Virus record (IMG/VR): IMGVR_UViG_3300050343_000240 | Location: 1 to 58,238 of that record | Length of the DNA stretch: 58,238 bases | DNA from: a virus | Taxonomy: Duplodnaviria; Caudoviricetes | Direction: 5' to 3' (one strand) | Notes under the pieces: model-generated | What the model was told of the DNA's origin: nothing | The model's input: the letters and a program-made list of their open reading frames with translations, nothing else | The model's database searches: none | Shown: positions 49,008 to 56,501 of the stretch, piece by piece | Position numbering within the stretch: the first letter of the stretch is position 1 | Layout: every line of letters begins with the position of its first letter | Position numbers and translations under genes: made by a program

Positions 49008-52000
49008 ATGCCAGAAATTAAAAACAATTTCTTTAAAGGGAAAATGAATAAAGACGCTGATGAGCGTGTTTTACCTCCTGGAGAATATAAAGATGCTTTA
49101 AACATTCAAGTTGGTGTTGCTGAAAACGGTGATGCCGGTAGCTTGCACAATGTATTAAGTAATAATAAAATAAGTAATCTTAATATTTCTGGAGCAAAGT
49201 GTATTGGTAGTGTAGCAGATACACAAGCTGAAAAAATATACTGGTTTATTTATGGTACAACAATTGATGCTATTGCGGAATATGATGAAACAACAGATAC
49301 TGTTTCTCCTGTAATAGTTGATACAACCAAAAATATATTAAAGTTTCCTAATACTCAAATAACTGCTGTAAATGTTATAGAGGGGTATTTAATATGGTCA
49401 GATAATAATTCTGAACCAAAAAATATTGATATAGAATATTTTAAATCTGGTTCTGTTGATTTTGCTACAACAACAACTATAAATGAAGATTATATAAATC
49501 TTACTAGGAGTATAATAGAATCTGATTTAACACTTATAAAAAAGAAACCAGCTTCAGCCCCTACTGTTTCATATAGTATTTACGGGGAAGAAGTTAAATC
49601 TTTTGGAATAAATATTACAGCAACCGTAGATATTACGGGAATAAATATTGGAGACTCCGTCACAATGACAGTTTCTGCTAATCCTAATTTTATTTCAGGA
49701 GAAGAGTTTTTTGTAACCAACACAAATGACATAGGTAGTAGAGGATTTAAGTTTATTTCTATTAGCGGAGGAACTATTACAGCAGAATATGTTTCTGTAT
49801 TCGGGTATCCTTTACAATCTTTTACAGGTACAATAAAAAAAGGAGATATATTATTTAAAGATAAATTTGTAAGATTTGCTTATAGATGGCGTTTTAAAAA
49901 TAACCAAATATCAATTTTTTCTCCATTTACTGAACCAATTTTTGAGCCATATCCTGTTTTTGATCTTAATGATGAAGACGGATATAATACTTCTATGGAA
50001 AATATTATACGCCTTATAGAATTAGACAAAATTGATGTAACACCTACAGATTTGTATACTATTGATATAGTATATAAAGACTCTAGCGAAAATAATTTAT
50101 ATATTTATAAAACATTAAAAAAAGAAGAATTTGAAAATTATTCTACTGGAAATGGAAAAATTAAAATAAATACTGAAAGCTTATATTCTGTTATATCAAA
50201 CAATCAATTATTTAGACAATACGATAATGTTCCTTACAGAGCTAAGGCTTTGGAAATAACTGCAAATAGAGTTTTATTTGCTAACTATAAAGACGGATTA
50301 AATATAGTAACGGATCAAACTGGTAATTATGTAGAGTATAACCCATCGTTTAATATTTCTACCAGTAGGCGGTTAGATCATTTTTCTAAATCTATAAAAA
50401 CAGGAAGAACCTACCAGTTGGGAGTTGTTTTTGAAGATAAATATGGTAGACAAACACCTGTTGTTTCTAATGATTCAGGAGAAAAAAAGATTAATTACAA
50501 TGAAGTTAGATTTTTTTCAGCTACTCCGCCTAGAATTAGTGGTAATGAATTTAAAGTTTCACTATCAGATTTACCTCAAAATACTTTTTTTGACAATAGA
50601 ATAAGTAAATTTAAATATTATATTAAAGAGCAATCTAAAGAGTATTATAATATATTTTTATATAAAGCTTTTGATGATATTGTAAATACAGATTTTTTAT
50701 GGATAGCTATACCTAGTTATGAAATAAACAAAGTGCAAAAAGAAGATATTTTAATTTTAAAGAAAAAAGCAAATACAAATGCTCCTTTGTCTGACGCTTC
50801 ATTAAAATACAAAGTTCAAGAAATTTCAAATGATTTCCCTACAAATCAAATAACATCAACTGAAACTTTTAATGGTTACTTTTTTATAAAAATAAAAAAA
50901 GACTCAAAAGGAATAGCGACTGTTGCTAATTTAAGTGCAGATAATACTTTACCTGGATGGTACGGGGCGGCAGTTTTTGAAACAATTCCATCAGACAATA
51001 TACTTGATTTATATTATGAAACAGAAGATTCATATAATATATCTGAATATAATCAAGAAAAAACATTAAGATGGTTTAATTGTTTTGATTTTGGTAATGG
51101 TGTTGAAAGCGACAGAATAAGAGATGATTTTAATGAAGTAACTATAGATAATCAAGTAAGGGTTTCTACAACTGTTGAAGATGGGTATAAACAAAAGCAT
51201 AATAAATATGGTTTAATATTTTCTAGTGGATTATTTAATTCAAGAAATGGCATTAATAATATAAACCAGTTTAACACAGGAGAAGCTATTACAAAAGATT
51301 TAAATCCAGAACACGGGAGCGTACAAAAGCTGCATAGTAGAAACAACGATATAATTGCTTTATGTGAAGATAAAATTTTAAGAATATTAGCTAATAAAGA
51401 TGCTCTTTTCAATGCTGATGGCAATGTTAACCTAACTTCTACAAATAACGTTTTAGGACAATCAGTGCCTTATGCTGGTGAATATGGAATATCTCAAAAT
51501 CCTGAATCTTTTGCGGATTACGGTTATCAGGTATATTTTACAGATAAAGCTAGAAATGCTGTACTTAGGCTTTCTATGGATGGCTTAAGTGTTATATCTA
51601 ATTATGGTATGGCAGACTTTTTTAGAGATAAGTTTAATTTAGCTACGGCCGAAGAATCTATTTCTTTTAAAGAAGGTATTGATGGTTGGACGTCAAGATT
51701 AAGTTTTGTGCCAGAATCAGGCGTTTCTTTAAATGGGTCTTATTACACCATGAAAGATGGGGAGCTATATAAACAGCATGTAGCTTCTAGCAACTATAAT
51801 AATTTTTATAGCACACAATACAATTCTACTGTTGATTTTATATATAATCAAGAACCTTCTGTAATTAAAAACTTTAAAACATTAAGTTACGAAGGCTCTG
51901 AAAATTGGTATGCTAATACTATAGAGACAGATCAACAATCTGGCAAAGTGGAAAAAATATTATTAAGTGATTTACAATCTCAATATCCTTCTTTAGATAA

Positions 52001-52157
52001 TAATACTTTAATAGAAATACAAAAAAATAATTCTTTTATAAATAAAGAAGGTAAGTGGTTTGCAAATATTAAAGGTGTTGCAAATACAGATAATAATTTA
52101 GATACTAAAGAATTTTCTATACAAGGGTTAGGAAATATAACTAGTTTTACAACATAG
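49008..52157 (+). CDS. Tail nozzle/stabilisation protein (T7 gp12/P22 gp10-like)
   Basis: 1049-aa beta-rich protein; GKMNKD.DER, YGISQNPESFA, YFTD...VLRLS.DG, KEGKWFA. Confidence 0.75.
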   Translation: MPEIKNNFFKGKMNKDADERVLPPGEYKDALNIQVGVAENGDAGSLHNVLSNNKISNLNISGAKCIGSVADTQAEKIYWFIYGTTIDAIAEYDETTDTVSPVIVDTTKNILKFPNTQITAVNVIEGYLIWSDNNSEPKNIDIEYFKSGSVDFATTTTINEDYINLTRSIIESDLTLIKKKPASAPTVSYSIYGEEVKSFGINITATVDITGINIGDSVTMTVSANPNFISGEEFFVTNTNDIGSRGFKFISISGGTITAEYVSVFGYPLQSFTGTIKKGDILFKDKFVRFAYRWRFKNNQISIFSPFTEPIFEPYPVFDLNDEDGYNTSMENIIRLIELDKIDVTPTDLYTIDIVYKDSSENNLYIYKTLKKEEFENYSTGNGKIKINTESLYSVISNNQLFRQYDNVPYRAKALEITANRVLFANYKDGLNIVTDQTGNYVEYNPSFNISTSRRLDHFSKSIKTGRTYQLGVVFEDKYGRQTPVVSNDSGEKKINYNEVRFFSATPPRISGNEFKVSLSDLPQNTFFDNRISKFKYYIKEQSKEYYNIFLYKAFDDIVNTDFLWIAIPSYEINKVQKEDILILKKKANTNAPLSDASLKYKVQEISNDFPTNQITSTETFNGYFFIKIKKDSKGIATVANLSADNTLPGWYGAAVFETIPSDNILDLYYETEDSYNISEYNQEKTLRWFNCFDFGNGVESDRIRDDFNEVTIDNQVRVSTTVEDGYKQKHNKYGLIFSSGLFNSRNGINNINQFNTGEAITKDLNPEHGSVQKLHSRNNDIIALCEDKILRILANKDALFNADGNVNLTSTNNVLGQSVPYAGEYGISQNPESFADYGYQVYFTDKARNAVLRLSMDGLSVISNYGMADFFRDKFNLATAEESISFKEGIDGWTSRLSFVPESGVSLNGSYYTMKDGELYKQHVASSNYNNFYSTQYNSTVDFIYNQEPSVIKNFKTLSYEGSENWYANTIETDQQSGKVEKILLSDLQSQYPSLDNNTLIEIQKNNSFINKEGKWFANIKGVANTDNNLDTKEFSIQGLGNITSFTT

Positions 52158-52163
52158 TACATA

Positions 52164-53390
52164 ATGAGTATAAACGCAGATAACATAATAGGTACATACG
52201 ATATATATAGTAAACAATATATATTAACTTTTACAGAAAAGCCTACTTTAATTGAATCTACAGATTGTAGTTTTCAAATATCTATTATACCTGAATTTGA
52301 ATGTGCTTATTCAGGTTTAAGTATACCTGATGGTATTGTTGGTGATACTGTTACAGCAACAGTAACAGAGGGCACTATAGGTACTATAACACCTAGTGCT
52401 TATCAACAAGGCTTAACAGATTATTCTGTTCAAATTACAGCTCCAGGTGGTTATACTAATGCTGGTACTATTATATTATGTCCTGCTTCAGCAACCGGAA
52501 CGCCTACATTTGGCTGTAGCGATGCGGCGTTAAGCATTAATAATGGTAATGTAGGAGCTACTGTTACTGGAACAGTATCTTTAGGTACAATTGTAAGTTT
52601 TACACCATCAACATATGTTTCCGGATCAACCCAATACTTTGCAAAAATTACAGTTCCTTCTGGGTATTCTAATACGGGAGACACTGAATTTGGTTGTTCT
52701 GGTTCTGCTACAGGTATAAACCCACCACCACCACCGACTCCACCGACTCCGCCGGCTCCTACTCCCCCGCCAACTCCAGCTCCATGTACCTCTAGGATAA
52801 CTTCTAGTTCTATACCAGCACAAACATTAACTCAAGGCCAAACAGTAACTATTAATCTAAATAGTTATTTTACACAACTTGATGGATTATCTTTAAGTTA
52901 TTCTGTTAATGCAGCACAAGCAATAAACTTTTACGGATTATTATCAAGCGCAACAATAAGCGGAAGTACATTAACTATGGTGGCAAACAATAACAATGTC
53001 TGCTCTCCTACAAGTTCAGTTCAAATAACAGCTGATGATGGTGTATCAGGAAACTGTATAGGAGTAGGAAATATTGGAATTACAGTTACTGGATGTTCAG
53101 GGCCAACTCCACCAACTCCACCAACTCCACCACCCCCAACCCCGCCTACGCCCACGCCGCCTACGCCAACACCACCGGCTCCAACACCTTCCTTGTATTA
53201 TACATTCAATGCATGTGACCCGAGCTTAGCGGCGGTAGATGTTCAATTAGCATCCCAGCCAGCAAATAACGCAAGATATGTAAGATCTTCAGATATGACG
53301 TTTTGGACTTATGATAATAACGCAGGTACTTCTACAGCTACTAACCCTACTGCGAGCCTTAACTTTACATCAAACACAGGATGCCCTTAA
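52164..53390 (+). CDS. Pro/Thr-rich, Cys-bracketed modular virion surface protein
   Basis: Two ~65-aa repeats, two (P/T)n tracts and a C-terminal YYTFNAC...GCP module. Confidence 0.8.
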   Translation: MSINADNIIGTYDIYSKQYILTFTEKPTLIESTDCSFQISIIPEFECAYSGLSIPDGIVGDTVTATVTEGTIGTITPSAYQQGLTDYSVQITAPGGYTNAGTIILCPASATGTPTFGCSDAALSINNGNVGATVTGTVSLGTIVSFTPSTYVSGSTQYFAKITVPSGYSNTGDTEFGCSGSATGINPPPPPTPPTPPAPTPPPTPAPCTSRITSSSIPAQTLTQGQTVTINLNSYFTQLDGLSLSYSVNAAQAINFYGLLSSATISGSTLTMVANNNNVCSPTSSVQITADDGVSGNCIGVGNIGITVTGCSGPTPPTPPTPPPPTPPTPTPPTPTPPAPTPSLYYTFNACDPSLAAVDVQLASQPANNARYVRSSDMTFWTYDNNAGTSTATNPTASLNFTSNTGCP

Positions 53391-54538
53391 TGAATGAAAT
53401 TAAAAATTTTTTAAATAAAAAAGAATGTGATTATATTATAAGTTTAATTAATAATAACAACTTTAAATCACAAGTAATTGGATCAAAAGGTAAATCTATT
53501 TATGAAAACAGTAGAACTTCATCTACTTCTAATTTATTAATAACAGATGAGGTTGTTATTAGTGTGCATAAAAAAATATCAGATTATTTAAATATACCTA
53601 TAGAAAACGGGGAATCTTTGCAAGGCCAAATGTATAAACCGGGTGAATATTTTAAACCGCATCAAGATGCTTTTTCTGGCAATTCTTATGAAGCCCACGC
53701 AGGAACTGCTGGAAACCGCACGCACACTTTAATGATTTATTTAAATGATGATTTTGAAGGTGGTGAAACAAGATTTACAAATATTAATAAGTCTGTATTA
53801 CCTGAAGTAGGTAAAGCTGTATTTTGGAAAAATATAGACGAAAATAAAAATATAATACCAGAGTCAATGCATGAAGGTTGCGAGGTAACCTCAGGTAAAA
53901 AGTATATAATAACTTCCTGGTGGAGAGAAAATTCTTGGCTTACAAATACTACTGAAACTAATAATTTTGTTGATTCTGAGCTGCCTAAACTCACAGAGAA
54001 AGGTTTTAAAGTAATACCATTACCTGAAAACGAATGGGGTATAATACAAGATGCTTATAAATTAATTAAAGACAAAAATGTAGAAGAAATTTTTGATAAT
54101 AAAAAAGATTTTATTAAAAATGGAAATACTGAATTATTAAGTTTTGATCACGTACCTAATATTAAAAAATTTATTCATAATAAGTTGTTAAAAATTCACG
54201 AAGAATTTGCTGGTAAAAAACTTATACCGTCTTTTATATATGGAATTAGATCTTATCAAAATGGTGCAACATTAGTCCCTCACGTAGATCGCATTGAAAC
54301 TCATCATATATCTTCTATAATTATTATAGATAAAAATTTAAACAGTGAAAATGATTGGCCTTTAGATATTAAAGACCATAATGGAAAGTGGCATAAAGTT
54401 TACGCAAAACCAGGTGATATGATACTTTACGAAGGAGCGGTGTGTGAACATGGTCGTAAAGAAAGCTTTAAAGGTAATTATTTTAGAAATTTATTTGTTC
54501 ATTATAAGTTTTATGACTTTACACTTCCTAGCGCCTAA
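53390..54538 (+). CDS. Tandem 2OG-Fe(II) oxygenase; N-domain prolyl-4-hydroxylase-like
   Basis: SRTS, HQD, YLNDDFEGGET.F, SMHEG, KYIITSW; second domain HVD...EHGR; likely start at the TAATG overlap. Confidence 0.88.
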   Translation: MNEIKNFLNKKECDYIISLINNNNFKSQVIGSKGKSIYENSRTSSTSNLLITDEVVISVHKKISDYLNIPIENGESLQGQMYKPGEYFKPHQDAFSGNSYEAHAGTAGNRTHTLMIYLNDDFEGGETRFTNINKSVLPEVGKAVFWKNIDENKNIIPESMHEGCEVTSGKKYIITSWWRENSWLTNTTETNNFVDSELPKLTEKGFKVIPLPENEWGIIQDAYKLIKDKNVEEIFDNKKDFIKNGNTELLSFDHVPNIKKFIHNKLLKIHEEFAGKKLIPSFIYGIRSYQNGATLVPHVDRIETHHISSIIIIDKNLNSENDWPLDIKDHNGKWHKVYAKPGDMILYEGAVCEHGRKESFKGNYFRNLFVHYKFYDFTLPSA

Positions 54539-55133
54539 AAACAAAAATATTTGGCCAGATTTGTGGCATAAATGCTTACTTTCTTGGCAAAAACATTATA
54601 GCGATATAAAAGTTTGGGATGATTATGAAATAGATAATTTTATAAAAAAATATGATACTAACTTTTTCAAAATATTAAACCAATCTCATAAAATATTTAG
54701 GTTAGATTATGTTAGGGGATTAATTCTTGAAAAAATAGGGGGAGCATATATAGATATTGACATAGAATTAATATCTCCATTCATGCATCAAATAGATAAT
54801 AATGAAATATATATAATTGAAGCTTACGCAGATGACGAAGTGTTTCAAAATAGTTTAATGATTTCATCTCAATCAAGTTTTTGGACTGAGTTTTTATATT
54901 ACTGCAGAGAGTCTATATTTAAAAATTTAGAAAGCGTAACAAAATACCCTAATATAAAAGAAAAAATACCAGGTACAATAGTGAGAAAAACTGTGGGCCC
55001 AATAGCTTTATCTAATTTTATAATAAATAATAATAAAGCAGTAAAAAAATTACCTAATAATTTATTTAATAGTTCAAAAAATATTTGTTTTACAAAGCAC
55101 CATAATACTGGTATATGGGGTTTTATAGATTAA
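54513..55133 (+). CDS. DxD glycosyltransferase (GT32/OCH1-like)
   Basis: SWQKH...WDD...DYVR..IL...GGAYIDID...GP...H...W. Confidence 0.8.
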   Translation: MTLHFLAPKNKNIWPDLWHKCLLSWQKHYSDIKVWDDYEIDNFIKKYDTNFFKILNQSHKIFRLDYVRGLILEKIGGAYIDIDIELISPFMHQIDNNEIYIIEAYADDEVFQNSLMISSQSSFWTEFLYYCRESIFKNLESVTKYPNIKEKIPGTIVRKTVGPIALSNFIINNNKAVKKLPNNLFNSSKNICFTKHHNTGIWGFID

Positions 55134-55151
55134 AAGTTAAAAAAAAATAAA

Positions 55152-56147
55152 ATGGCAGTATATAAAATAATTGGAACTTTTGGAAATTCTTTTTCAAATT
55201 CAGATCAAATTAATCTTTTTGTTAATTCTGGTACCATAGTTCCATCTACTACAACCAAGTTTCAACTTGAGCAAGGTATTTTTGTTACTGTTAATAGTGG
55301 TGTTACAATTACTGCATATACTTCAAATGGTACTTGCGCTAATATTTCTGATGCTGTAGACGTGCCTAATACTCCCGTACCAGAACCTACGGAAGAATTT
55401 GATTGTAATACTACAAATCTAAATTTAACTATTAATAACGGAACTGAAGGTGATAATGTTACAGGAACTGCTTATCTACCTGACGGTTCTTTAGGTACAA
55501 TAACAGGTTTTTCTCCTTCTTTTTATAGTACTAGCGTAACTACTTATAGAGCATTTATAACAATACCAAGTGGTTACTCTAACACAGGAGATGGTGAACA
55601 AGTTATTGGCTGTGATGGTACAGCAACGGTTACCCCGATAACATCTTCTCACTTATATTATACATATGAGGCTTGTGATGGCAGCAGCGATGTAGATGTT
55701 TTATTAGAATCTGCTCCATTTTCATCAATAGAAAGAAGAATAGATTACAGTACTTCTAAATATTATACTTATAGCGGAGACGCAGGTACTAGTGCTAATT
55801 CAAATCCTATAAAATCTTTAGATCTAATAAGTGGAACAGGTTGTCCACCTTTACCTACATATTATTATATAGCAGTAAGAGAATGTACTGATTATAATTC
55901 AAACGGAGCTCTTGAGGATAGGGTTGTAAGGTCTCTTACAGACATCACAGGATGGAGTCATGTTTTAATACCAAGGTATTCTGGAGACACAGGAGCTGTA
56001 TATGAAAAATATGGTAGTTTAAATCAATCTTCTTTAGCAACAGCTTATGAAGACGGAACTTTTGATTTGCCTTCAGTAGACTTAGATAATACTGCTTCGT
56101 CCAACGGAATTACAGTAGCATCTTTAGAAAAAACAACGTGCCCCTAA
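55152..56147 (+). CDS. Cys-bracketed modular virion protein, paralogous to 52164..53390
   Basis: Shares INNG..G..VTGT...ITIPSGYSNTGD...GC and LYYTY.AC...GCP modules. Confidence 0.8.
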   Translation: MAVYKIIGTFGNSFSNSDQINLFVNSGTIVPSTTTKFQLEQGIFVTVNSGVTITAYTSNGTCANISDAVDVPNTPVPEPTEEFDCNTTNLNLTINNGTEGDNVTGTAYLPDGSLGTITGFSPSFYSTSVTTYRAFITIPSGYSNTGDGEQVIGCDGTATVTPITSSHLYYTYEACDGSSDVDVLLESAPFSSIERRIDYSTSKYYTYSGDAGTSANSNPIKSLDLISGTGCPPLPTYYYIAVRECTDYNSNGALEDRVVRSLTDITGWSHVLIPRYSGDTGAVYEKYGSLNQSSLATAYEDGTFDLPSVDLDNTASSNGITVASLEKTTCP

Positions 56148-56183: not shown

Positions 56184-56501
56184 ATGAGTCAGATCACGTT
56201 AAATATAAACTTTGATAAAAATACTTCATTACAAGTTGGAGATATTATTTATTATGAAACTGCAGGTTCTATTAAAACAATAGGACCTGTAACTACTATT
56301 AATACTTCATCTATAGTTTGTGAAGAAACTGGTGACACCAGTAGTTTAGCAAACAACTCATTTATTTTTTTTGGGAAAGACAACGAAATAAATACATCGG
56401 GTATAATAGGATACTATGCCGAAGTACAAATGAAAAACGAATCAACTTCTGAAGCTGAAATATTTGCAGTTAATTCAGAAATATTTTTAAGTAGTAATTA
56501 A
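56184..56501 (+). CDS. Tail-associated protein
   Basis: NTSLQVGDIIYY...SGIIGYYAEV...EIFAV.SE. Confidence 0.7.
   Translation: MSQITLNINFDKNTSLQVGDIIYYETAGSIKTIGPVTTINTSSIVCEETGDTSSLANNSFIFFGKDNEINTSGIIGYYAEVQMKNESTSEAEIFAVNSEIFLSSN

What the first reader, a model, noticed from the sequence alone, without database searches (positions are those of the whole stretch)
51600..52240. A conserved piece of the nozzle protein appears to have moved to the N-terminus of the next gene
Seen: the nozzle reads ...ISNYGMADFFRDKFNLATAEESISFKEGIDGWTS..., and the next gene begins MSINADNIIGTYDIYSKQYILTF. From recall of this family, a segment like IIG.YD....Y.LT normally lies between FFRD and the SF.E...GW.S motif. 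Inference: the Pro-rich accessory protein docks onto the tail by donating the missing beta-hairpin of a propeller blade (strand complementation), a plug-in mechanism for attaching exchangeable surface modules.
Basis: partly seen in the sequence, partly recalled or inferred. Interest (0 to 1): 0.75.

Follow-up and report, generated by a model that had tools for sequence, protein, structure and literature searches.

The report
Tail nozzle hairpin donated by neighbour
In this marine phage, a 17-residue beta-hairpin that relatives keep inside the tail-tip nozzle protein sits instead at the start of the next, highly variable protein, which most likely plugs it back into the nozzle to anchor itself on the tail.

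Summary
The nozzle protein (49008-52157) lacks a 17-residue segment (IIGxYD....Y.L[ST]F). That segment is in place in 25 of 25 aligned relatives outside its clade and in 147 of the best 150 library representatives.

A profile of the segment, built only from those relatives, finds one significant match in the six-frame window: residues 7-23 of the next protein (E 1.2e-7; next best 0.035). No locus among 82 has two copies.

In a relative's model the segment forms the first two strands of a four-stranded propeller blade.

Three independent metagenome contigs show the same split with different passengers. The sister subclade has the hairpin in cis behind the nozzle's C-terminus, followed by the passenger. 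The next outgroup keeps the hairpin internal and fuses a Pro-rich passenger at the end.

A co-fold places the peptide against the orphan strands (score 0.66; best control 0.00). Independent contigs bridge both junctions.

Trans completion of nozzle propeller blades was shown by cryo-EM in phage A1002 (PMC13730344). This is therefore a new variant of a known kind. Binding here is predicted, not shown.

The parts
49008..52157 (+). Nozzle / muzzle-like tail-tip protein (1049 aa) that lacks the blade hairpin
   Evidence: ORF. Pfam crAss_MUZ_C at aa 929-1022 (E 2.3e-11, 44.4 bits against cutoff 27). PHROG 14478 (E 1.3e-113). About 33% identity and shared gene order with structural proteins of Cellulophaga phage phi38:1 (gp097) and Flavobacterium phage elemoA (gp25).
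51645..51650 (+). Deletion junction (T880|A881), where relatives carry the 17-aa hairpin
   Evidence: Alignments A2 and A3 and hmmalign of 150 representatives. Bridged by independent contigs.
51651..51707 (+). Orphan outer strands of the blade (EESISFKEGIDGWTSRLSF, aa 882-900)
   Evidence: They align with strands 3 and 4 (ETVSY, GWPTRK) of the blade in the L010 model. Residues 884-888 are the closest contacts of the donated peptide in the co-fold.
51792..52073 (+). crAss_MUZ_C-type C-terminal domain of the nozzle. It contains a window-specific insert of about 28 aa (about 51947-52034).
   Evidence: Pfam hit. The insert is absent from L004, L006 and L008. Contig variants in runs X3 and X9 skip 83-86 nt here.
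52158..52163 (+). 6-nt spacer between the nozzle's TAG stop and the ATG of the next gene. The two ORFs are in the same frame.
   Evidence: L008 is also in frame. L003 and L006 are out of frame and end in TAA.
52164..53390 (+). Accessory (passenger) protein, 408 aa: N-terminal hairpin anchor, repeat modules, Pro-rich linkers and a Cys-bounded C-terminal domain
   Evidence: ORF. No Pfam family above cutoff and no PHROG. N-terminus conserved in 13 clusters with mosaic remainders.
52182..52232 (+). Relocated beta-hairpin NIIGTYDIYSKQYILTF (aa 7-23)
   Evidence: Only significant hit of the canonical-hairpin HMM in the window (27.8 bits, E 1.2e-7). Interface residues 1-5, 7-25 and 27 in the co-fold.
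53381..56147 (+). Rest of the variable accessory slot: 2OG-Fe(II) oxygenase (53381-54538), DXD glycosyltransferase (54444-55133) and a second passenger protein (55152-56147)
   Evidence: Pfam PF13640 (E 1.6e-19) and PF04488 (E 6.2e-6). Homologues in L004, L006 and L008.
56184..56501 (+). 105-aa protein. It is homologous to the small domain that is fused to the C-terminus of the nozzle in phi38:1, elemoA, L012, L024 and others, so it marks the far edge of the variable slot.
   Evidence: blastp against locus ORFs.

Best explanation
The nozzle's beta-propeller has one blade left with only its two outer strands. The two inner strands, a 17-residue hairpin, are encoded at the N-terminus of the next gene. 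That protein inserts its hairpin into the gap, which completes the blade in trans. The same step fixes its variable C-terminal passenger (Ig-like repeats, Pro-rich linkers, small Cys-bounded domains) to the tail tip, probably one copy per nozzle subunit.

The arrangement most likely arose in steps:
1. A canonical nozzle.
2. A passenger fused to the nozzle's C-terminus.
3. The hairpin moved in cis to the linker between nozzle and passenger.
4. Fission by a stop and a new start just upstream of the hairpin.

Shown here: the deletion, the relocated homologous segment, the one-copy rule, the fused and split relatives, and the conserved anchor with mosaic passengers. Inferred: physical insertion into the blade, stoichiometry, the order of events and the passenger's role at the host surface.
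For: 1. The segment is missing from the nozzle but present in 25 of 25 non-clade relatives and in 147 of 150 representatives.
2. An HMM of the canonical segment hits only the N-terminus of the next protein in the window (E 1.2e-7).
3. Across 717 ORFs of 82 loci there are 56 hits. No locus has two. Three hits are N-terminal (L003, L006, L008, all with hairpin-less nozzles) and 53 are internal.
4. Fused relatives L004, P0019 and P0022 lack the internal hairpin. They carry it about 20 residues after the nozzle's C-terminus on a Ser/Thr/Pro linker, followed by a passenger. P0022's passenger resembles the window's.
5. In the tree the hairpin-less clade is monophyletic (support 0.99-0.998), with fused and split subclades as sisters. 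The nearest outgroup, P0017/P0018, has an internal hairpin KIIGSYD(V/I)HT(K/R)QYVLSF, very like the relocated one, and a Pro-rich passenger fused at the C-terminus.
6. In the AlphaFold model of canonical L010, the hairpin forms strands 242-246 and 251-255 of a four-stranded blade, with block pLDDT 84-86. The fold matches the phicrAss001 muzzle (Foldseek E 5.4e-10; VIA Z 14.5, rmsd 4.0, 223 aligned) and podophage nozzles.
7. Co-fold: ipSAE 0.66/0.66/0.61 against a best control of 0.00 (3 controls). That mark was reached by 58 of 80 solved complexes and 2 of 110 mismatched pairs. Partner pLDDT is 65-69 and contact agreement is at least 84%. Partner residues 18-22 lie against nozzle 884-888, and residues 8-12 against 831-836 and 843-845.
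8. Anchor residues 1-25 have median identity 0.92, against 0.39 for the rest, over 105 pairs of 15 proteins. The divergent pairs show more synonymous than non-synonymous codon differences in the hairpin (6:2, 6:3, 8:3).
9. Precedent: in phage A1002, cryo-EM shows a nozzle-base propeller whose blade 1 lacks two strands and blade 2 lacks three. The strands are supplied by a second, fibre-docking protein (PMC13730344; passages read).
Against: - There is no experimental or proteomic evidence for this phage, which is an uncultured metagenomic virus record.
- The AlphaFold single-chain model of the fused form L004 was poor (mean pLDDT 43.4, pTM 0.29). It drew the C-terminal segment as a hairpin but did not place it with confidence (pLDDT about 40).
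- In the co-fold the nozzle fragment's own pLDDT is only 54-57. It is a monomeric fragment, my own alignments were used, and the model may simply recognise the contiguous blade of relatives. That would show likeness, not binding.
- Codon counts in close pairs are few and not clearly purifying.
- The order of events (fusion first or fission first) is not resolved by the tree.
Confidence: 0.8

Rival explanations
1. Nozzle and accessory protein are made as one polypeptide in this phage, by read-through of the in-frame TAG. The hairpin would then complete the blade in cis, as in the fused relatives, and there would be no free plug-in protein.
For: The two ORFs are in the same frame, separated by TAG TAC ATA. 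L008 is the same. Genuinely fused relatives exist.
Against: TAG ends 5 of 47 long non-overlapping ORFs in the window. No tRNA, and so no suppressor, is encoded. L003 and L006 have TAA stops and are out of frame. The start MSIN... is conserved in 13 separate protein clusters. A minor read-through product cannot be excluded.
Confidence: 0.07
2. The N-terminal segment is a leftover of the rearrangement, or it binds somewhere else. The nozzle blade would function with two strands and the accessory protein would attach by other means, or not at all.
For: Binding is only predicted. The AlphaFold model of the cis form did not dock the hairpin. A second passenger protein (55152-56147) has a different conserved N-terminus, so other anchors exist in this slot.
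Against: No locus has two copies of the hairpin. The anchor is strongly conserved next to mosaic passengers. The fused forms keep a conserved linker of about 20 aa. The co-fold places the peptide exactly at the gap, with controls at 0.00.
Confidence: 0.1
3. Assembly or gene-calling artefact: a chimeric contig or a frameshift creates the apparent deletion and the new N-terminus.
For: The window is a metagenomic assembly.
Against: Independent runs from different studies yield contigs that cover both junctions without differences. Twenty rows in 17 studies hold the stretch or a part of it. Three other IMG/VR contigs at 59-74% identity show the same architecture. The deletion is in frame.
Confidence: 0.01

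Closest known systems
Split nozzle of Pseudomonas podophage A1002: nozzle-base gp42 with nozzle-rope gp39 (PLoS Biol 2026, PMC13730344; passages read)
   Same: A podophage nozzle beta-propeller with incomplete blades is completed by strands from a second protein, and that protein also carries the attachment site for host-recognition modules.
   Different: In A1002 a whole platform and two partial blades (5 strands) sit on a 620-aa rope protein that fibre dimers then dock on. Here only one 17-aa hairpin (2 strands of one blade) has moved, onto the N-terminus of the variable passenger itself. This lineage also preserves fused and cis-permuted relatives. Sequence homology to gp39/gp42 was not tested.
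phicrAss001 muzzle protein gp44 and T7-type nozzle gp12 (Nature 2023, PMC10172136; passages read)
   Same: The C-terminal MUZ_C domain (Pfam). A relative's model matches the propeller fold (Foldseek E 5.4e-10; VIA Z 14.5). It occupies the tail-tip position in the structural module.
   Different: gp44 is described as one chain with a complete seven-bladed propeller, with no trans-supplied strands. The window protein is shorter (1049 against about 1360 aa), and presence of the 'crass domain' was not tested.
Donor-strand complementation in chaperone-usher pili (recalled, no call)
   Same: An N-terminal extension of one protein supplies the missing strand or strands of a neighbour's incomplete beta fold, giving a very stable non-covalent joint.
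   Different: That system has an Ig-like fold missing one strand, with chaperone-mediated exchange and polymerisation. Here it is a two-strand hairpin of a propeller blade, with no chaperone known and no polymer.
Circular permutation and velcro closure of beta-propellers (recalled, no call)
   Same: Strands of one blade come from distant parts of the chain. The fused relatives (L004, P0019, P0022) behave like a partial permutation.
   Different: Here a hairpin from an internal position in the chain, not the closing blade's terminal strand, is moved past a whole extra C-terminal domain and then onto another gene.

Membership tests
Podophage nozzle / crassvirus muzzle family (Pfam crAss_MUZ_C, PHROG 14478) | C-terminal muzzle domain recognised by the curated profile | tested here: met
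   PF25729 at aa 929-1022, 44.4 bits against cutoff 27, E 2.3e-11. PHROG 14478, E 1.3e-113.
Podophage nozzle / crassvirus muzzle family (Pfam crAss_MUZ_C, PHROG 14478) | Beta-propeller domain of the T7 gp12 / crAss001 gp44 type | tested here: met
   Tested on the model of relative L010, not on the window protein itself. Matches are 7qok_A/7qol_P (Foldseek E 5.4e-10; VIA Z 14.5, rmsd 4.0, 223 aligned), then the nozzles of GP4, SU10, Pa223, P22 and VP1 (Z 10.7-11.7). Only residues 120-310 of the model are confident.
Podophage nozzle / crassvirus muzzle family (Pfam crAss_MUZ_C, PHROG 14478) | [quoted passage not shown] | not testable with these tools
   Only gene order shared with the virion structural genes of phi38:1 and elemoA is available.
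Split nozzle completed by beta-strand complementation (A1002 type) | A nozzle propeller blade lacks strands that canonical nozzles have | tested here: met
   The 17-aa hairpin is absent from the window, while 25 of 25 non-clade relatives and 147 of 150 representatives have it. It forms strands 1-2 of a four-stranded blade.
Split nozzle completed by beta-strand complementation (A1002 type) | The missing strands are encoded on a second protein of the same tail module | tested here: met
   HMM hit at aa 7-23 of the adjacent protein, E 1.2e-7. No locus among 82 has two copies.
Split nozzle completed by beta-strand complementation (A1002 type) | The two proteins form one blade in the virion | not testable with these tools
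   Prediction only: ipSAE 0.66 against a best control of 0.00.
Split nozzle completed by beta-strand complementation (A1002 type) | Sequence homology to A1002 gp39/gp42 | not tested
   The A1002 sequences were not fetched, and the PDB copy used ends in April 2026. The claim is 'works like', not common descent of the split.
Chaperone-usher donor-strand complementation | Incomplete Ig-like pilin fold as the acceptor | tested here: not met
   The acceptor is a propeller blade. This is an analogy of mechanism only.

The most novel reading that the evidence does not exclude
The 17-residue hairpin is a natural, portable split-protein tag. The nozzle cannot complete its fold without it, so any passenger that carries the tag becomes an obligatory, stoichiometric tail-tip component. 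Passengers can then be swapped by recombination just downstream of the tag. The surviving series (internal hairpin, then a C-terminally fused passenger, then a cis-relocated hairpin, then a separate gene) would be a rare fully documented path. In it a structural protein gives up part of its own fold to recruit, and become dependent on, an exchangeable host-recognition module.
Probability: 0.5. Interest if true: 0.8.

Novelty: new variant of a known kind. Interest (0 to 1): 0.7.

Why it matters
How short-tailed phages attach and exchange host-recognition modules is a central question for host-range evolution. A two-strand plug taken out of the nozzle's own propeller would be a minimal, sequence-recognisable anchor. 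It lets one predict from sequence which neighbouring ORFs are virion tail-tip proteins in uncultured marine Bacteroidota-type phages.

The fused, cis-permuted and split relatives give a testable case of protein fission through a permuted intermediate. It also gives independent comparative support, from a distant lineage, for the split-nozzle principle just seen by cryo-EM in A1002. A 17-aa tag with a cognate acceptor domain could also be examined as a natural protein-complementation pair.

Tried and rejected
- PDB sequence search with the whole nozzle found no hit at E up to 1.
- The AlphaFold model of the fused form L004 (aa 641-1076, alignment A5) was too poor to say where the cis hairpin sits (mean pLDDT 43.4). 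This is inconclusive, not negative.
- The AlphaFold model of canonical L010 is confident only for residues 120-310 (mean pLDDT 53.5).
- A search for longer (fused) proteins using residues 1-40 of the accessory protein found 1 candidate and none significant. The tool itself calls this weak evidence. Fused forms were found instead through the nozzle profile.
- My first census of representatives, by regex anchor plus an 8-bit threshold, under-called hairpins (75 of 99 anchored). I replaced it with hmmalign.
- The idea that the second passenger (55152-56147, MAVYKIIGTFG...) carries a second hairpin is rejected: it scores -0.3 bits with the hairpin HMM.
- Conserved stop-codon read-through is rejected.
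- The treekit run gave no answer, so I used FastTree instead.
- Literature searches returned no paper on this phage group's nozzle split. Only those two searches were run, and supplements were not seen.
Full report
**What is there**

The window is a whole uncultured virus record (58,238 bases, completeness estimate 91) with a podophage-type structural module. ORF 49008-52157 (1049 aa) is the tail-tip nozzle, or muzzle-like, protein.
- Pfam crAss_MUZ_C matches aa 929-1022 (44.4 bits against a cutoff of 27).
- PHROG 14478 matches with E 1.3e-113.
- It shares about 33% identity and gene order with virion structural proteins gp097 of Cellulophaga phage phi38:1 and gp25 of Flavobacterium phage elemoA.

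Six bases after its TAG stop, ORF 52164-53390 (408 aa) begins MSINADNIIGTYDIYSKQYILTF. It continues with repeat modules, Pro-rich linkers and a Cys-bounded C-terminal domain. It matches no Pfam family above cutoff and no PHROG.

**Check of the observation**

I aligned 29 C-terminal nozzle regions: the window and 28 IMG/VR loci, drawn from the 80 loci kept out of 369 confirmed relatives.
- All 25 sequences outside the window's clade carry a 17-residue segment of the type VIIGSYDDYSNCYNISF. It lies between the conserved GMxD(F/Y)F helix and the strand (S/T)(F/Y)..G(W/F).
- The window, L004, L006 and L008 lack exactly this segment. The gap falls between T880 and A881 (nt 51647|51648).

A profile of the same region found 7270 representatives (E up to 1e-3) in a library of 1.84 billion proteins. 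Of the best 150, hmmalign shows the segment in place in 147. The three without it (P0019, P0022, P0023) share the window clade's flanks.

I then built an HMM from the 25 canonical segments only and scanned all 1366 six-frame ORFs of the window.
- It gave one significant hit, residues 7-23 of the 52164 protein (27.8 bits, E 1.2e-7).
- The next best was a partial match at E 0.035.
- The second passenger protein (55152-56147) scored -0.3 bits.

The resemblance is therefore real and specific.

**Assembly**

Twenty rows from 17 studies of marine metagenomes hold the stretch or a part of it. Contigs assembled independently from runs X3, X5 and X7 cross the deletion site, two of them with no differences. 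Contigs from X3 and X5 cross the gene junction. Misassembly is excluded for practical purposes.

**Structure**

An AlphaFold model of the canonical relative L010 is poor overall (419 residues, mean pLDDT 53.5). It is confident for residues 120-310.
- After the helix at 228-237, four consecutive strands follow: 242-246 (IIGSY), 251-255 (CYNIS), 260-264 (ETVSY) and 269-274 (GWPTRK). Block pLDDT over 241-260 is 85-86.
- The segment is thus the first hairpin of a four-stranded blade. The window's nozzle keeps only the last two strands.
- The fold matches the phicrAss001 muzzle best (Foldseek E 5.4e-10; VIA Z 14.5, rmsd 4.0, 223 aligned). Next come the podophage nozzles of GP4, SU10, Pa223, P22 and VP1, then generic propellers.
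- The crAss001 paper describes that protein as a hexamer with a seven-bladed propeller like that of the T7 nozzle (PMC10172136, passages read).

**Comparative evidence for function**

- *One copy only.* Across 717 ORFs of 82 loci the hairpin HMM gives 56 hits, and no locus has two. Three hits are at an ORF's N-terminus (L003, L006, L008), and those loci have hairpin-less nozzles. The other 53 are internal. The remaining 26 loci gave no hit; several of those contigs are cut short.
- *Same split, other passengers.* The gene after the nozzle starts MSINAENIIGSYDIHSKQYILTF in L003 (588 aa), MSIKADKIVGTYDIYSKQYVSTF in L006 (275 aa) and MSINADNIIGTYDIYTKQYIVTF in L008 (394 aa). A search with residues 1-40 found 13 protein clusters of 394-611 aa with this start and mosaic remainders. 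Over 105 pairs of 15 proteins, residues 1-25 have median identity 0.92, against 0.39 for the rest.
- *Cis forms.* In L004 (1635 aa), P0019 (1592 aa) and P0022 (1553 aa) the nozzle also lacks the internal hairpin. The chain continues past the usual C-terminus through a Ser/Thr/Pro linker of about 20 residues into NIIGTYDI(H/Y)SKQY(V/I)LSF and then a passenger. P0022's passenger resembles the window's.
- *Phylogeny.* FastTree on the C-terminal region gives a monophyletic hairpin-less clade (support 0.99-0.998), with the fused and split subclades as sisters (0.955-0.975). Its nearest outgroup, P0017/P0018, keeps an internal hairpin KIIGSYD(V/I)HT(K/R)QYVLSF, close to the relocated one. It already has a Pro-rich passenger fused directly to the nozzle's C-terminus.

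A plausible series is: canonical nozzle, then a C-terminal passenger fusion, then relocation of the hairpin in cis, then fission. The tree alone cannot say whether the common ancestor of the hairpin-less clade was fused or split.

**Co-fold**

I folded nozzle aa 644-1049 (alignment of 29 rows) with residues 1-40 of the accessory protein (5 rows).
- ipSAE was 0.66, 0.66 and 0.61. The best of 3 controls was 0.00.
- In the tool's calibration that mark was reached by 58 of 80 solved complexes and 2 of 110 mismatched pairs. Those counts hold only roughly, because my own alignments were used.
- Partner pLDDT was 65-69 and contact agreement at least 84%.
- Partner residues 18-22 touch nozzle 884-888 (SISFK), the strand that follows the hairpin in canonical relatives. 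Partner residues 8-12 touch 831-836 (NPESFA) and 843-845 (YFT).

This supports binding at the gap but does not show it. The model may be recognising the contiguous blade of relatives, and the nozzle fragment's own pLDDT is only 54-57.

The AlphaFold model of the fused L004 form was too poor to place the cis hairpin (mean pLDDT 43.4; hairpin drawn as two strands at pLDDT about 40). In that model the orphan-strand region falls to pLDDT 33-49, against 85-86 for the corresponding blade region in L010. I treat this as inconclusive.

**Read-through**

In the window and in L008 the two ORFs are in frame across TAG TAC ATA. Several points argue against read-through as the rule.
- L003 and L006 end in TAA and are out of frame.
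- TAG ends 5 of 47 long non-overlapping ORFs here.
- No tRNA is encoded.
- The MSIN start is conserved.

A minor read-through product cannot be excluded.

**Context**

The slot between the nozzle and a conserved 105-aa protein (56184-56501) is variable. That 105-aa protein is a free gene in many relatives, but it is fused to the nozzle's C-terminus in phi38:1, elemoA, L012, L024 and others. In canonical relatives the slot holds a 563-998-aa protein with a different conserved N-terminus (MALNNCSI...). Here it holds the hairpin-anchored passenger, a 2OG-Fe(II) oxygenase, a glycosyltransferase and a second passenger.

**Comparison with what is known**

A paper of November 2026 reports a split nozzle in Pseudomonas phage A1002 by cryo-EM. 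In the nozzle-base gp42 propeller, blade 1 lacks two strands and blade 2 lacks three. The nozzle-rope protein gp39 fills them in and also carries the fibre-docking rope (PMC13730344, passages read). The principle is therefore known.

The present case differs in several ways.
- The transferred piece is minimal: one hairpin.
- It sits on the variable passenger itself.
- It occurs in a distant marine phage lineage.
- Fused and cis-permuted relatives survive.

I file it as a new variant of a known kind. My two literature searches returned nothing on this phage group's nozzle split.

**Verdict**

Physical complementation, stoichiometry and the passenger's function remain to be shown.

Noticed in passing
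window 53381-55133; L004 8928-9527; L006 8087-9832; L008 8285-9436: A 2OG-Fe(II) oxygenase (PF13640, E 1.6e-19) and a DXD glycosyltransferase (PF04488, E 6.2e-6; homologue found only in L006) sit next to the Pro-rich passenger proteins. Oxygenase homologues follow the Pro-rich passengers in L004, L006 and L008. None was found in L003, whose passenger start resembles the non-Pro-rich clusters P0012 and P0013. That PF13640 covers prolyl-4-hydroxylase-type enzymes is recalled, not from a call. If so, the linkers might be hydroxylated and glycosylated.
   Followed up: partly
L055-L058, L060, L064, L067-L082 (e.g. L055 4001-7156 and 7204-8673): In another large clade the nozzle is encoded as two genes: an N-part of about 1000-1335 aa and a C-part of about 430-550 aa. 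They are separated by about 30-50 nt, and most C-parts start with a conserved MA..(I/L)E(V/I)(K/S)Y(F/Y)N(T/S). This is a second, independent natural fission of the same protein family. There the hairpin stays internal in the C-part.
   Followed up: partly
window 56184-56501: The 105-aa protein is homologous to the last 90-110 residues of the nozzle in phi38:1, elemoA, L012, L024, L032 and L059. In many other relatives it is a free gene 1.7-3 kb downstream. The accessory-gene slot therefore lies between two parts that are one protein elsewhere.
   Followed up: partly
window about 51947-52034: A window-specific insert of about 28 aa (EKILLSDLQSQYPSLDNNTLIEIQKNN) lies in the MUZ_C domain. It is absent from L004, L006 and L008. 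Contigs in runs X3 and X9 join across it, skipping 83-86 nt with 5-8 other letters in between. It looks like an indel polymorphism in natural populations.
   Followed up: no
window 55152-56147; L003 8888-9940; L008 9471-10502: The second passenger protein has its own conserved N-terminus (MA.Y.(I/L).GTFG.SF.NSD). This is not the hairpin (-0.3 bits). It may be a different anchor for an unknown site. It shares the Cys-bounded 'LYY..(A/E)C...GC(P)' domain with the C-terminus of the first passenger and with the fused forms.
   Followed up: no
L010 8037-9728, L011 8232-10520, L013 8100-11096, L047 8047-10317, L025 8196-10691: In canonical relatives the gene after the nozzle (563-998 aa) has a different conserved start, MAL(N/T)NC(S/T)I.S(Q/D)S...(K/Q).GG, followed by a conserved (I/V)ITP..GYV motif. 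It is probably another type of tail-tip anchor with variable distal parts.
   Followed up: no
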